From an uncultured Clostridia bacterium (lineage in GTDB: Bacteria; Bacillota; Clostridia; TANB77; CAG-508), in assembly GCA_934120395.1 (NCBI GenBank), contig CAKOTZ010000006.1, forward strand, positions 16,914-80,913: a stretch of 64,000 nt of DNA. The letters are read 5' to 3'. Below the pieces are notes generated by a model. That model worked only from the letters and a program-made list of their open reading frames with translations, was not told the DNA's origin and did not search any database. Position 1 is the first letter of the stretch. The number at the start of each line of letters is the position of its first letter. This document shows, in pieces, positions 13,520 through 14,854 of the stretch. The position numbers and the translations under genes are program-made.

Positions 13520-14854
13520 ATGAACAGTGCTATCAATATGTTAAATATAGTGTTAGTAATTTTGGTTTTCATTATTTTAGCTTTAGGACTTGCTTATTTT
13601 TATATATCATATCGTAATAAGAACAAATCAAAGGAAGAAATAAGAGCTGCTGAAAAAGGAAATAAAAGCACAGATTACGTGTCTCCTGTTCAAGGAAATT
13701 TAACAAAAGAATCTATATATAAGTTTATGGAATTTGATGAAATAAAGGACAATATGATTATTCGTAAAAATAGAGAGCAATATGTAATGGTAATCCAATG
13801 CCAAGGTGTTAACTATGACTTGTTATCAGAACAAGAAAAAATCGCTGTAGAAGAAGGGTTTGTACAATTTTTAAACACATTGCGCTTTCAAGTACAGTTA
13901 TATGTACAAACAAGAAGTTTAAATTTAAGGGAAATAATTGAAGGATATAAAGGTAGAGTAAAAAACCTAGAACAAGAAGTTGAGCAAATTAGAAGTAAAA
14001 TAAGAGTAGCTGCTAACAGTGGAAATTTACAAGCATTAGAAAAGCTAAGATATGAGGAAAGAAGAAAAGTTAATATTCTAGAATATGGGGCTGATATTTC
14101 AGAATATATAAGTAGAATGAGCTTAAATAAAAATGTATTGCAACAAAAAACCTACATAGTTATTTCATATTTTGCAAATGAACTAGGAAATATTTCTAAT
14201 TACTCAAAATCTGAAATAGATAATATGTGTTTTTCAGAATTATATACAAGGGCGCAATCTGTTATTCGTTCATTAGCATCTTGCGAAGTTAGCGGAAGAA
14301 TATTAAATTCAGAAGAATTGGCAGAATTGCTATACATTGCATACAACAGAGATGATGCAGAATTATTACAATTATCTAAAGCTCTAGATGCAGAATATGA
14401 TGCATTATATAGTACTGCAAAAGATGTATTACAGAAAAAAGAAGAGATGATTGAAAAACAATTAGATGAGGAAGCGGTTGAACTTGCAACAAAAAGTATT
14501 ATGTCTGTTGATGAACAAATGGAACAAGAAAGACTAGAAAAGGCAAAACGAGAAAGAAAAGTAAAACAAAAGGCAGTAAAACTCGTAAATGAATATAGGG
14601 ATCAATTAGAAGATAAAGTATATGAAAGAGTTATTGAAGAAGTAACAGGAAAAAAACAAGAAATAAGTCAGGAAGATGAGCTAGAAAGCGAATATGAAGA
14701 GGCTGTTGAAAAAGCAAAAGAAATAAGAGAGGAAACTGAAAAACCAAAACGAAAAAGAAGAACAAAGAAAGAAATGGAAGAAGCAAAAAAACTTGATGAA
14801 GAAAAGGAAACAGCACCAAAGAAAAGAGGAAGACCAAGGAAAACAGAAGAATAG
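13520..14854 (+). CDS. membrane-anchored protein with VirB4-N-terminal-like region and long charged coiled-coil tail ending in an AT-hook (KKRGRPRK)
   Basis: RBS aaggagg before ATG 13520. N-terminal TM; YVMVIQCQGVNYDLLSEQEKIAVEEGFVQFLNTLRFQVQLYVQ resembles the N-domain of Gram-positive VirB4/PrgJ; C-terminal ~200 aa E/K-rich. Confidence 0.45.
   Translation: MNSAINMLNIVLVILVFIILALGLAYFYISYRNKNKSKEEIRAAEKGNKSTDYVSPVQGNLTKESIYKFMEFDEIKDNMIIRKNREQYVMVIQCQGVNYDLLSEQEKIAVEEGFVQFLNTLRFQVQLYVQTRSLNLREIIEGYKGRVKNLEQEVEQIRSKIRVAANSGNLQALEKLRYEERRKVNILEYGADISEYISRMSLNKNVLQQKTYIVISYFANELGNISNYSKSEIDNMCFSELYTRAQSVIRSLASCEVSGRILNSEELAELLYIAYNRDDAELLQLSKALDAEYDALYSTAKDVLQKKEEMIEKQLDEEAVELATKSIMSVDEQMEQERLEKAKRERKVKQKAVKLVNEYRDQLEDKVYERVIEEVTGKKQEISQEDELESEYEEAVEKAKEIREETEKPKRKRRTKKEMEEAKKLDEEKETAPKKRGRPRKTEE

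What the first reader, a model, noticed from the sequence alone, without database searches (positions are those of the whole stretch)
13520..14854. VirB4-N-domain-like membrane protein with 200-aa charged coiled-coil and C-terminal AT-hook
Between the PrgI-like gene and the bona fide VirB4 lies a protein whose N-terminal 200 aa resemble the VirB4 N-domain (VIQCQGVNYDLLSEQEKIAVEEGFVQFLNTL). Its C-terminus is an E/K-rich predicted coiled coil ending in KKRGRPRK, a DNA-binding AT-hook. This suggests a DNA-contacting component in a cluster that otherwise lacks DNA-processing genes.
Basis: partly seen in the sequence, partly recalled or inferred. Interest (0 to 1): 0.5.

Follow-up and report, generated by a model that had tools for sequence, protein, structure and literature searches.

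The report
Detached front piece of VirB4 ATPase
This gene encodes the membrane-anchored first ~180 residues of the type IV secretion motor VirB4, made as a separate protein (a TrsD-like subunit) beside a shortened VirB4; this is a known, uncharacterised component, and its AT-hook-like tail occurs only in some relatives.

Summary
The ORF is real: 13520-14854, 444 aa, with a strong RBS, between a PrgI/VirB3-like gene and a VirB4-like ATPase.

It has one N-terminal TM helix and a conserved cytoplasmic core (aa ~56-300). A 145-aa charged tail ends in KKRGRPRK.

The core is homologous to the first N-terminal subdomain ("N1") of full-length VirB4:
- HHalign to columns 18-212 of CD1110-type VirB4: 89% probability, E 2e-6.
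- NCBIfam VirB4_plasma positions 100-262: E 2.5e-6.
- R388 T4SS chains are the best consistent Foldseek PDB hits, all weak (E about 0.01-0.1).

The neighbouring 657-aa VirB4 matches columns 214-765 of the same alignment. The two genes together therefore make one complete VirB4.

The family is related to TrsD/TraD. The literature already describes TrsD as remotely VirB4-N-like and without assigned function.

PrgI - this gene - VirB4 synteny holds in 78 of 80 species-level Clostridia genomes and on Bacillus and Clostridium plasmids.

The "200-aa coiled coil" is overstated.

The RGR/GRP tail motif is non-random (33/78 orthologues against 0.24 expected). It is absent from most orthologues and from 61 of 65 diverse family members.

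A T4CP-like gene and a Replic_Relax gene lie at 61.8-64 kb, so DNA-processing genes are not absent from the window.

Verdict: an ordinary member of a known component class with a lineage-specific, untested basic tail.

The parts
13505..13510 (+). Ribosome-binding site AGGAGG, 9 nt upstream of the ATG at 13520. The ATG lies 1 nt after the PrgI-like stop codon, which suggests translational coupling.
   Evidence: Sequence read directly.
13520..14854 (+). Whole gene: a 444-aa TrsD-like protein that carries the VirB4 N1 subdomain.
   Evidence: ORF list. An identical protein occurs on 8 contigs with the same neighbours.
13538..13612 (+). N-terminal transmembrane anchor (aa ~7-31), followed by a basic RNKNKSK stretch and a variable linker (aa 32-65).
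   Evidence: Kyte-Doolittle 19-residue maximum of 3.0 at aa 7. All 65 diverse family representatives have an N-terminal TM.
13715..13924 (+). First half of the VirB4-N1-like core (aa 66-135): three strands, a helix and a strand. It contains the G-[VI]-N-Y-x-L...E-x-G-F-x-x-F-L-N motif.
   Evidence: Invariant columns. HHalign to CD1110 VirB4 columns 18-212. NCBIfam VirB4_plasma positions 100-262, E 2.5e-6. AF2 core model pLDDT 88.
13925..14125 (+). Helical hairpin of ~65 aa (aa 136-202), inserted into the N1 fold.
   Evidence: AF2 helices at core residues 81-112 and 115-145, pLDDT ~86-97 for most of the hairpin, falling to ~74 at its C-terminal end. It appears as a gap in the CD1110 VirB4 alignment. 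The first helix has 3.5-residue periodicity, p~0.001.
14126..14419 (+). Second half of the VirB4-N1-like core (aa 203-300): strand-helix-strand-helix, with the conserved AELLY-x-AYNRDD motif.
14420..14647 (+). Conserved charged C-terminal helix region (aa 301-376). T324, S326, D331, A352, Y359 and Y368 are invariant among close orthologues.
   Evidence: Alignment A1. AF2 helix to ~aa 358 with pLDDT ~90. Heptad periodicity is not significant.
14648..14851 (+). Variable, highly charged tail that is probably disordered (aa 377-444).
   Evidence: pLDDT below 50 in segments beyond aa 379. 62% of residues are charged. Length and sequence vary between orthologues.
14819..14842 (+). AT-hook-like motif KKRGRPRK (aa 434-441).
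   Evidence: Sequence. Pfam AT_hook 14.6 bits against a 17.4-bit cutoff. RGR or GRP occurs in the last 40 aa of 33/78 orthologues against 0.24 expected.
13183..13518 (+). PrgI/VirB3-like membrane protein, the conserved upstream partner.
   Evidence: Pfam PrgI E 3.1e-7. It lies 0.3-0.7 kb upstream in 80/80 related loci.
14877..16850 (+). VirB4-like ATPase lacking the N1 subdomain (657 aa, Walker A at aa ~265), the conserved downstream partner.
   Evidence: NCBIfam conju_CD1110 match starts at model position 172; VirB4_plasma match starts at 279. HHalign to CD1110 VirB4 columns 214-765, E 3e-57. It lies 1.0-1.7 kb downstream in 78/80 loci.
11289..13148 (+). Four VirB2/T4SS_pilin-like paralogues of the same cluster (11289-11657, 11724-12107, 12123-12482, 12756-13148).
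   Evidence: Pfam T4SS_pilin and TrbC hits. Gene calls on L001.
16861..25327 (+). Rest of the cluster: a 61-aa protein, two VirB6-like polytopic proteins (317 and 816 aa), an 878-aa cell-wall hydrolase (weak M23 hit plus a SleB-like domain) and three unknown proteins (202, 191 and 313 aa).

Best explanation
The gene encodes a TrsD-like inner-membrane subunit of a Gram-positive (MPF_FATA-like) type IV secretion system. It is the first N-terminal subdomain (N1, ~180 aa) of VirB4, made as a separate polypeptide.

In this lineage N1 carries three additions:
- its own N-terminal transmembrane anchor;
- a ~65-aa helical hairpin inserted into the fold;
- a long charged C-terminal extension.

The adjacent 657-aa VirB4 starts exactly where N1 ends.

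Inferred mechanism:
1. The protein docks on the membrane-proximal face of the VirB4 hexamer and reconstitutes a complete VirB4 N-terminal domain in trans.
2. Together with PrgI/VirB3 it tethers the ATPase to the membrane channel formed by the VirB6-like proteins.
3. The C-terminal helix and the acidic/basic tail project into the cytoplasm.
4. The terminal K-R-G-R-[K/P/R]-K motif is a lineage-specific short linear motif. It may bind AT-rich DNA or another polyanion, but it is dispensable for the core machine.

What is shown: homology, exact domain complementarity, conserved synteny, the TM anchor, and motif statistics.

What is inferred: physical docking to VirB4 and PrgI, orientation of the tail, and any DNA binding.
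For: Homology of the core to VirB4 N1:
- HHalign of the 66-sequence family profile against four full-length CD1110 VirB4s gives 89.4% probability, E 2e-6, 193 columns, core 1-239 to VirB4 columns 18-212.
- The core matches NCBIfam VirB4_plasma positions 100-262 of 894 at E 2.5e-6. Of 66 family members, 30 match that model, 4 match conju_CD1110 and 2 match VirB4_CagE.
- Foldseek of the pLDDT-88 core model puts R388 T4SS chains 8rtd_h, 8rtd_P, 8rtd_V, 8rtb_B and 7o41_B at ranks 1, 3, 4, 6 and 8, probability 0.87-0.98. I read these chains as TrwK/VirB4; only 8rtb_B carries that name in its entry title.

Complementarity with the neighbouring ATPase:
- The split-type ATPases, including the window VirB4, align to columns 214-765 of the same VirB4 alignment (E 3e-57).
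- The family profile does not match these ATPases (probability 0.1%).
- Walker A lies at aa ~441-453 in three of the full-length CD1110 VirB4s (530 in the Finegoldia protein, which has a long N-terminal extension) and at ~265 in the window VirB4.

Relationship to TrsD:
- The core matches NF041427 TrsD/TraD at E 2.7e-4, and 10 of 66 members match it.
- The family HMM scores 47 bits, and HHalign gives 96% probability and E 2e-9, on the 224-aa protein directly upstream of TrsE on B. mycoides p78.
- The literature describes TrsD as remotely homologous to the N-terminal portion of VirB4 and as having no assigned function (PMC12102498).

Synteny:
- PrgI - this gene - VirB4 is conserved in 78 of 80 species-level genomes.
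- The same order occurs on C. botulinum and Terribacillus plasmids, where PGAP names the homologue 'TraC family protein'.

Other:
- All 65 diverse representatives carry an N-terminal TM.
- None of the top 150 representatives is longer than 605 aa, so none looks fused to a VirB4-size ATPase.
Against: - No direct evidence of a physical complex was obtained.
- The sequence signal to VirB4 is remote (about 10% identity in HHalign) and the Foldseek E-values are weak (about 1e-2, TM-score ~0.3). The conclusion rests on several moderate lines agreeing.
- The score against the curated TrsD model is far below its cutoff (20.8 against 200 bits).
- The roles of the hairpin and of the tail are unexplained.
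Confidence: 0.8

Rival explanations
1. The C-terminal AT-hook makes this subunit the DNA-contacting element of the machine. It would recruit or hand over AT-rich DNA in a T4SS cluster that has no local coupling protein or relaxase. This is compatible with the structural explanation and adds a specific function for the tail.
For: - KKRGRPRK has the canonical R-G-R-P core flanked by basic residues.
- RGR or GRP occurs in the last 40 aa of 33/78 species-level orthologues against 0.24 expected from tail shuffles, with a maximum of 3 in 500 shuffles. It persists in distant orthologues of 48-52% identity as TRGRPKK.
- No T4CP or relaxase lies inside 11-25 kb.
- The genome is ~29% GC.
- From general knowledge, RGR-type motifs bind the minor groove in Lsr2 and H-NS.
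Against: - The Pfam AT_hook score is below threshold (14.6 against 17.4 bits).
- The motif is absent from 45/78 orthologues whose cluster is intact, and from 61/65 diverse family representatives.
- A T4CP-like gene and a Replic_Relax gene are present in the window. The homologous T4CP-like ORF lies about 7 kb upstream of this T4SS type on a plasmid.
- The shuffle control ignores shared ancestry.
- A basic patch next to an acidic tract can serve many other roles.
Confidence: 0.2
2. The helical hairpin (aa 136-202) or the long C-terminal helix acts as a stalk or regulator that inserts into or alongside the VirB4 hexamer. This would be analogous to FliJ/EscO-type hairpins in type III secretion ATPases.
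For: - The hairpin is predicted with high confidence and is an insertion relative to full-length VirB4.
Confidence: 0.1
3. The split is a degenerate or accidental gene fission, a frameshifted virB4 on its way to becoming a pseudogene, and has no function as a separate protein.
For: Other genes in the window look split: lgt at 9503-10193 and Peptidase_S11 at 34745-35996.
Against: - The two-gene arrangement is conserved in 78/80 species-level genomes and on distant plasmids.
- The gene has its own strong RBS.
- There are 1366 representative clusters at E<=1e-3. The top 150 are 86-605 aa and none is long enough to include an ATPase.
- Many core positions are invariant.
Confidence: 0.02
4. It is a VirB8-like or other bitopic scaffold whose C-terminal domain is extracellular.
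For: Bitopic proteins with one N-terminal TM helix are common in Gram-positive T4SS clusters (general knowledge).
Against: - The positive-inside rule places the C-terminal part in the cytoplasm: RNKNKSK follows the TM.
- The fold and the profile match VirB4 N1. No NTF2/VirB8-like family appeared among the Pfam or NCBIfam hits.
Confidence: 0.03

Closest known systems
TrsD / TraD of the pGO1-pSK41 / pIP501 subclass of MPF_FATA conjugation systems (NCBIfam NF041427)
   Same: - A small protein encoded directly upstream of an N-terminally short VirB4 (TrsE/TraE).
- Remotely homologous to the N-terminal portion of VirB4, with no assigned function (PMC12102498).
- The family profile matches the protein in the TrsD position on B. 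mycoides p78: HHalign 96% probability, E 2e-9.
- The core matches NF041427 at E 2.7e-4.
   Different: - The NF041427 model is 201 positions long, and the 224-aa comparator has no TM helix.
- This protein is 444 aa, with an N-terminal TM anchor, an inserted helical hairpin, and a 145-aa charged extension with an AT-hook-like end.
- Its score (20.8 bits) is far below the model cutoff (200 bits).
N-terminal domain of full-length VirB4 (CD1110 family in Firmicutes; Mbov_0397 family in mycoplasma ICEs; TrwK of R388, PDB 8RTD/8RTB/7O41)
   Same: - The same fold and motif order as the first ~180 residues.
- Encoded immediately after the VirB3/PrgI gene, as the VirB4 N-terminus is in the fused proteins.
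   Different: - It is a separate polypeptide with no ATPase domain and no Walker A.
- It has its own TM helix.
- It carries the hairpin insertion and the C-terminal extension.
SCO6880-family proteins of Actinobacteria (NCBIfam NF042935)
   Same: Probably another case in which part of the VirB4 N-terminal region sits on a separate protein. This is a lead only.
   Different: In this window the SCO6880 model (positions 332-476) matches the VirB4 protein itself at aa 61-204 (E 1.9e-5), not ORF444. If that family is a split VirB4, the break point would be after the second subdomain, not after the first. It was not examined further.
VirB3-VirB4 fusion proteins
   Same: TM helices placed directly N-terminal to the VirB4 N-terminal domain. 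Such fusions are mentioned in PMC12102498.
   Different: Here PrgI/VirB3 remains a separate gene and the single TM helix shows no PrgI match. This is an architectural analogy only.
AT-hook (Pfam PF02178; HMGA-type) and bacterial RGR minor-groove motifs (Lsr2, H-NS; from general knowledge)
   Same: An R-G-R-P core flanked by K/R, near a chain terminus in a disordered region.
   Different: - Below the Pfam threshold.
- A single copy.
- Many orthologues have RGRK or RGRR without the proline.
- DNA binding is untested.

Membership tests
TrsD/TraD family conjugative transfer protein (NF041427) | Whole-protein score at or above the curated cutoff (200 bits). | tested here: not met
   20.8 bits, E 2.7e-4, core aa 26-108 to model positions 30-116. 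10 of 66 family members match at E<=0.01.
TrsD/TraD family conjugative transfer protein (NF041427) | Gene located immediately upstream of an N-terminally short VirB4-type ATPase (TrsE/TraE-like) and downstream of a VirB3-like gene. | tested here: met
   Order is PrgI 13183-13518, this gene, VirB4 14877-16850. The same order holds in 78/80 genomes and on B. mycoides p78.
TrsD/TraD family conjugative transfer protein (NF041427) | Remote homology to the N-terminal portion of VirB4 (as described in PMC12102498). | tested here: met
   HHalign 89% probability, E 2e-6, to VirB4 columns 18-212. VirB4_plasma E 2.5e-6. R388 T4SS chains are the best consistent Foldseek hits.
Pfam PF26593 (label precomputed for most homologues) | Match to the Pfam model at its gathering score. 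| not testable with these tools
   PF26593 is attached to most of the 120 listed homologues. It is absent from the local Pfam copy. The identical protein P0001 carries no precomputed label. No paper mentions the accession.
VirB4 family ATPase (TIGR00929 / conju_CD1110) | C-terminal P-loop ATPase domain with Walker A and B motifs. | tested here: not met
   No Walker A in ORF444 and no ATPase-domain hit. The protein is a homologue of one VirB4 subdomain, not a VirB4.
VirB4 family ATPase (TIGR00929 / conju_CD1110) | N-terminal subdomain N1 (strand-rich start, the INY...FLN helix, then alternating strands and helices). | tested here: met
   The secondary-structure order of the AF2 model follows the aligned VirB4 N1 segment.
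AT-hook (PF02178) | R-G-R-P core flanked by basic residues. | tested here: met
   KKRGRPRK at aa 434-441.
AT-hook (PF02178) | Score at or above the Pfam gathering threshold. | tested here: not met
   14.6 bits against 17.4.
AT-hook (PF02178) | Binding to the minor groove of AT-rich DNA. | not testable with these tools
   This needs EMSA or NMR with the peptide.
AT-hook (PF02178) | Conservation of the motif in orthologues. | tested here: inconclusive
   33/78 orthologues have RGR or GRP (15 have GRP) against 0.24 expected. 45/78 orthologues and 61/65 distant representatives lack it.
Coiled-coil protein | Continuous heptad periodicity over a long helix. | tested here: not met
   - No significant 3.5-residue periodicity over 301-358 (shuffle fraction 0.22) or 301-444 (0.63).
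- Only 136-167 and 361-405 show it.
- The last 39 aa are 5% hydrophobic.
- This was a crude Fourier test, not a dedicated coiled-coil predictor.

The most novel reading that the evidence does not exclude
The cluster could be a chromosomally fixed, vertically inherited T4SS of a clade of uncultured gut Clostridia, used for something other than classical plasmid or ICE conjugation. DNA uptake or release, as in ComB or Ced systems, is one possibility; cell-cell interaction, as proposed for Patescibacteria, is another. In that reading the detached VirB4-N1 subunit has acquired an AT-hook-type tail that contacts DNA at the cytoplasmic face of the motor. The evidence does not exclude this:
- the cluster sits in the same housekeeping context in ~42 of 80 species;
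- it has four pilin paralogues and no local relaxase or T4CP;
- the motif is strongly non-random.
Probability: 0.08. Interest if true: 0.7.

Novelty: new member of a known kind. Interest (0 to 1): 0.33.

Why it matters
TrsD-like proteins are reported as the most abundant T4SS component found in Patescibacteria, and a TrsD homologue is listed as essential in one cultured epibiont (PMC12102498). [quoted passage not shown]

The clean complementarity found here is: family core to VirB4 columns 18-212, and neighbouring ATPase to columns 214-765. This gives a concrete, testable role: these proteins are the N1 subdomain of VirB4 supplied in trans. In this subfamily N1 has its own membrane anchor.

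That helps annotation. These ATPases are currently labelled 'DUF87' or 'hypothetical', and in the plasmid records examined the partner is 'hypothetical' or, once, 'TraC family'.

It also suggests a natural system for dissecting what the VirB4 N-terminus does.

The AT-hook-like tail is a minor lineage-specific feature unless DNA binding is shown.

Tried and rejected
1. PDB sequence search with the family profile gave no hit at E<=10.

4. The afdb50 fold library was unavailable.

5. The search for homologous proteins with the N-terminal 278 aa of Finegoldia VirB4 returned only one fragment, so one capped search was wasted. I replaced it with four plasmid-borne CD1110 VirB4s fetched individually.

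6. The local Pfam copy lacks PF26593, so the family name could not be read. A literature search for the accession found nothing.

7. Literature searches for 'TrsD' and 'TraD' found no experimental characterisation. The pELF 'TraD' is a T4CP and is unrelated.

8. Considered and rejected:
- a pseudogene or accidental fission, because of the conservation;
- a VirB8-like extracellular scaffold, because of topology and fold;
- a single 200-aa coiled coil, because of the periodicity and pLDDT results.

9. An exact-sequence lookup of the T4CP-like ORF failed. The ORF is cut by the window end, so its true product is longer.
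Full report
**1. What is there**

The ORF runs from 13520 to 14854 on the + strand and encodes 444 aa.
- The ORF listing offers an earlier ATG at 13493, but that start overlaps the upstream gene.
- AGGAGG lies at 13505-13510, 9 nt before the ATG at 13520, and that ATG sits 1 nt after the upstream stop codon.
- The window is ~29% GC, with nearly all genes on the + strand.

The gene sits inside a type IV secretion cluster at 11.3-25.3 kb:
- four VirB2/T4SS_pilin-like genes;
- a PrgI/VirB3-like gene (13183-13518, Pfam PrgI E 3.1e-7);
- this gene;
- a VirB4-like ATPase (14877-16850, 657 aa);
- a 61-aa protein;
- two VirB6-like polytopic proteins;
- an 878-aa cell-wall hydrolase (SleB-like Hydrolase_2 domain, plus a weak sub-threshold M23 hit);
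- three proteins of unknown function.

Upstream lie housekeeping genes: murG, topA, trmFO, yqeY, two M16 peptidase genes and lgt fragments.

**2. Anatomy of the protein**

- aa ~7-31 form a single strongly hydrophobic helix followed by RNKNKSK. The bulk of the protein should therefore be cytoplasmic.
- aa 32-65 are a variable linker.
- aa 66-300 are very strongly conserved, with dozens of invariant positions among orthologues of 55-85% identity.
- An AlphaFold model of aa 56-359, built on 66 diverse homologues, has mean pLDDT 88.
 - It shows an alpha/beta core: three strands, helix, strand, then strand-helix-strand-helix.
 - A confident ~65-aa antiparallel helical hairpin (aa 136-202) interrupts the core.
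 - A long helix follows, reaching about aa 358.
- Beyond ~aa 379 the full-length model has low confidence.
- The tail aa 301-444 is 57% charged and ends in KKRGRPRK-TEE.
- A crude Fourier test finds 3.5-residue periodicity only in 136-167 and 361-405. It finds none over 301-358 or over 301-444.
- The last 39 residues are 5% hydrophobic.

The '200-aa coiled coil' is therefore better described as one long charged helix plus a disordered acidic/basic tail.

**3. Is the core VirB4-N-like?**

Yes. Four independent lines agree.

(a) NCBIfam.
- The core matches the N-terminal positions 100-262 of the 894-position mycoplasma-ICE VirB4 model at E 2.5e-6.
- 30 of 66 family members match that model, 4 match conju_CD1110 and 2 match VirB4_CagE.

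(b) HHalign.
- The family profile against four full-length CD1110-family VirB4s taken from plasmids gives 89.4% probability, E 2e-6 and 193 aligned columns.
- The core 1-239 aligns to VirB4 columns 18-212.
- The hairpin appears as an insertion.

(c) Foldseek against the PDB.
- Chains of the R388 T4SS structures (8rtd_h, 8rtd_P, 8rtd_V, 8rtb_B, 7o41_B) take ranks 1, 3, 4, 6 and 8, with probability 0.87-0.98 and E from 0.01 to 0.12.
- I read these as TrwK/VirB4 chains. Only 8rtb_B carries that name in its entry title.
- No hit reaches E 0.001, so this line is weak on its own.

(d) Literature and TrsD.
- The present family is related to TrsD. The core matches NF041427 at E 2.7e-4, and 10 of 66 members match it.
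- HHalign gives 96% probability and E 2e-9 to the 224-aa protein immediately upstream of TrsE on B. mycoides p78.

**4. Complementarity with the neighbouring VirB4**

- The 657-aa VirB4 matches the CD1110 model only from position 172 of 752. It matches the mycoplasma model only from position 279 of 894.
- In three of the four full-length CD1110 VirB4s, Walker A lies at aa ~441-453. In the Finegoldia protein, which has a long N-terminal extension, it lies at 530. In the window VirB4 it lies at ~265.
- HHalign places the split-type ATPases (window, C. botulinum, Terribacillus, B. mycoides TrsE) on columns 214-765 of the full-length alignment (E 3e-57).
- The ORF444 family occupies columns 18-212 and does not match the split-type ATPases at all (probability 0.1%).

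The two adjacent genes therefore tile a complete VirB4 with a break at about column 213.

I infer that ORF444 supplies the first N-terminal subdomain (N1) in trans. Docking itself was not tested.

**5. Distribution and synteny**

- More than 7,000 database proteins match the full-length query. Part of that number may come from the low-complexity tail.
- A profile of the core alone finds 1,366 clusters at 50% identity with E<=1e-3.
- The top 150 representatives are 86-605 aa; many are fragments. None is long enough to include a VirB4-size ATPase.
- All 65 near-full-length representatives examined have an N-terminal TM helix.
- In 80 species-level genomes, all uncultured gut or rumen Clostridia, PrgI lies 0.3-0.7 kb upstream in all 80. 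VirB4 lies 1.0-1.7 kb downstream in 78; the other two loci are truncated.
- In about 42 of the 80 the cluster has the same housekeeping neighbours (yqeY, two M16 peptidases, lgt in some, spo0E). This points to vertical inheritance on the chromosome.
- Remote members (25-30% identity) occur on 329 plasmids, mostly Bacillus cereus-group, plus C. botulinum and others.
- The two plasmid loci I examined (C. botulinum and Terribacillus) keep the order PrgI - this family - ATPase ('DUF87' or hypothetical) - large membrane protein (annotated 'type IV secretion system protein' on one plasmid) - peptidase/cell-wall hydrolase. One homologue is annotated 'TraC family protein'.

**6. The AT-hook-like tail**

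- KKRGRPRK has the canonical core but scores 14.6 bits against Pfam's 17.4-bit threshold.
- Among 78 complete species-level orthologues, 33 carry RGR or GRP in the last 40 residues and 15 carry GRP.
- Shuffling each tail gives an expectation of 0.24, with a maximum of 3 in 500 shuffles.
- 48 of 78 have a basic cluster near the C-terminus.
- The motif recurs in distant branches: KRGRKKK, KRGRRKLNT and TRGRPKK.
- It is absent from 45 of 78 orthologues with intact clusters, and from 61 of 65 diverse family representatives.

It is thus a real, selected short motif of one clade, not a defining feature of the component. Whether it binds DNA cannot be tested here.

**7. The 'no DNA-processing genes' premise**

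- Within 11-25 kb no coupling protein or relaxase was found.
- At the far end of the window there is an SSB gene (57005-57709).
- There is also a Replic_Relax-family gene (61809-62747; 25.0 bits against a gathering score of 25.3, so borderline).
- On the minus strand there is a T4CP-like gene (Pfam TraG-D_C 2e-9, TrwB_AAD_bind 2e-5). Its reading frame is still open at base 64000, so the window cuts it.
- Its product is 31.5% identical over 355 aa to the C-terminal half of a 923-aa T4CP-like ORF with TM helices and a Walker A. That ORF ends about 7 kb upstream of the homologue of this gene on a C. botulinum plasmid.
- A 63%-identical copy lies ~10 kb upstream of the cluster in one related genome.

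The machine may therefore have a coupling protein encoded at a distance. PMC12102498 notes that this is common.

**8. Mechanism proposed**

Shown:
- the protein is the N1 subdomain of VirB4 as a stand-alone, TM-anchored polypeptide;
- it is the exact complement of the adjacent ATPase;
- it is invariably co-encoded with PrgI and VirB4.

Inferred:
- It assembles on the membrane-proximal face of the VirB4 hexamer. In my recollection of the published R388 structure, this is where the fused N-terminal domain contacts VirB3; I did not verify that here.
- It helps to tether the motor to the PrgI and VirB6-like membrane proteins.
- The hairpin and the C-terminal helix are family-specific additions of unknown role.
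- The tail motif may bind DNA or another polyanion in one clade.

Confidence is 0.8 in the structural reading and about 0.2 in a DNA-binding role for the tail.

**9. Novelty and verdict**

- The component class (TrsD-like, VirB4-N-like) is already in the literature.
- The family already carries a Pfam accession (PF26593), which I could not open.
- New here are the clean demonstration that this family and its neighbouring ATPase tile a full VirB4, the family-specific TM anchor and hairpin, and the clade-specific AT-hook-like tail.

I rate the finding a new member of a known kind, of modest interest.

The more unusual context is a vertically inherited chromosomal T4SS with four pilin paralogues in a clade of uncultured Clostridia, reminiscent of the Patescibacteria T4SS. 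It lies outside the finding and is recorded as a lead.

Noticed in passing
window 28761-32885: A diversity-generating retroelement. It comprises two FGE-sulfatase/C-type-lectin-fold candidate target proteins (28761-30023, 30149-31414), an Avd accessory gene (31526-31891, NF033474 E 4.9e-21) and a reverse transcriptase (31869-32885, RVT_1). Template and variable repeats were not searched for.
   Followed up: partly
window 61809-64000 (and 57005-57709): - A T4CP-like gene lies on the minus strand from 62790. Its frame is still open at the window end.
- Convergent with it is a borderline Replic_Relax-family gene, 61809-62747.
- An SSB gene lies at 57005-57709.
- The T4CP-like product is homologous to a 923-aa T4CP-like ORF (L005 34-2805) upstream of the same T4SS type on a C. 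botulinum plasmid. It is also homologous to a copy ~10 kb upstream of the cluster in L082.
   Followed up: partly
window 11289-25327; loci L007-L086: The whole T4SS cluster appears chromosomally fixed and vertically inherited. The same housekeeping neighbours (yqeY, two M16 peptidases, lgt, spo0E) occur upstream in ~42 of 80 species-level genomes of uncultured gut or rumen Clostridia. No relaxase or T4CP lies inside the cluster. This resembles what is reported for Patescibacteria (PMC12102498).
   Followed up: partly
window 11289-13148: Four tandem VirB2/T4SS_pilin-like paralogues (122, 127, 119 and 130 aa) precede PrgI. Copy number varies between related genomes.
   Followed up: no
window 9503-10193; 34745-35996; 33485-33922: Apparently split or truncated housekeeping genes:
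- lgt as two ORFs (9503-9742 and 9780-10193; the latter matches LGT positions 115-239);
- a Peptidase_S11 D-Ala-D-Ala carboxypeptidase as two ORFs (34745-35170 and 35226-35996);
- a 145-aa MutS domain I fragment on the minus strand.
These could be assembly frameshifts in a MAG or true pseudogenes.
   Followed up: no
L005 10091-13064; L006 11809-14755: On the plasmids the TrsD-like gene overlaps the start of the ATPase gene, by 14 nt in C. botulinum and by 50 nt in Terribacillus. In the window the two genes are separated by 22 nt and each has its own RBS. The overlap suggests translational coupling. Programmed frameshifting to a fused product was not examined.
   Followed up: no
window 14877-16850, aa 61-204: The N-terminal part of the window VirB4 matches the C-terminal third (positions 332-476) of the actinobacterial SCO6880-family model (E 1.9e-5). 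This hints that Actinobacteria may split VirB4 at a different point.
   Followed up: no
window 20533-23169 and 36573-40721: - The T4SS-associated hydrolase (878 aa) has a SleB-like Hydrolase_2 domain and a weak M23 peptidase hit (20.6 bits, below the 28.7-bit threshold).
- Further downstream lies a 1382-aa surface protein with a thioester domain and five DUF11 repeats.
   Followed up: no
[not shown]
   Followed up: no
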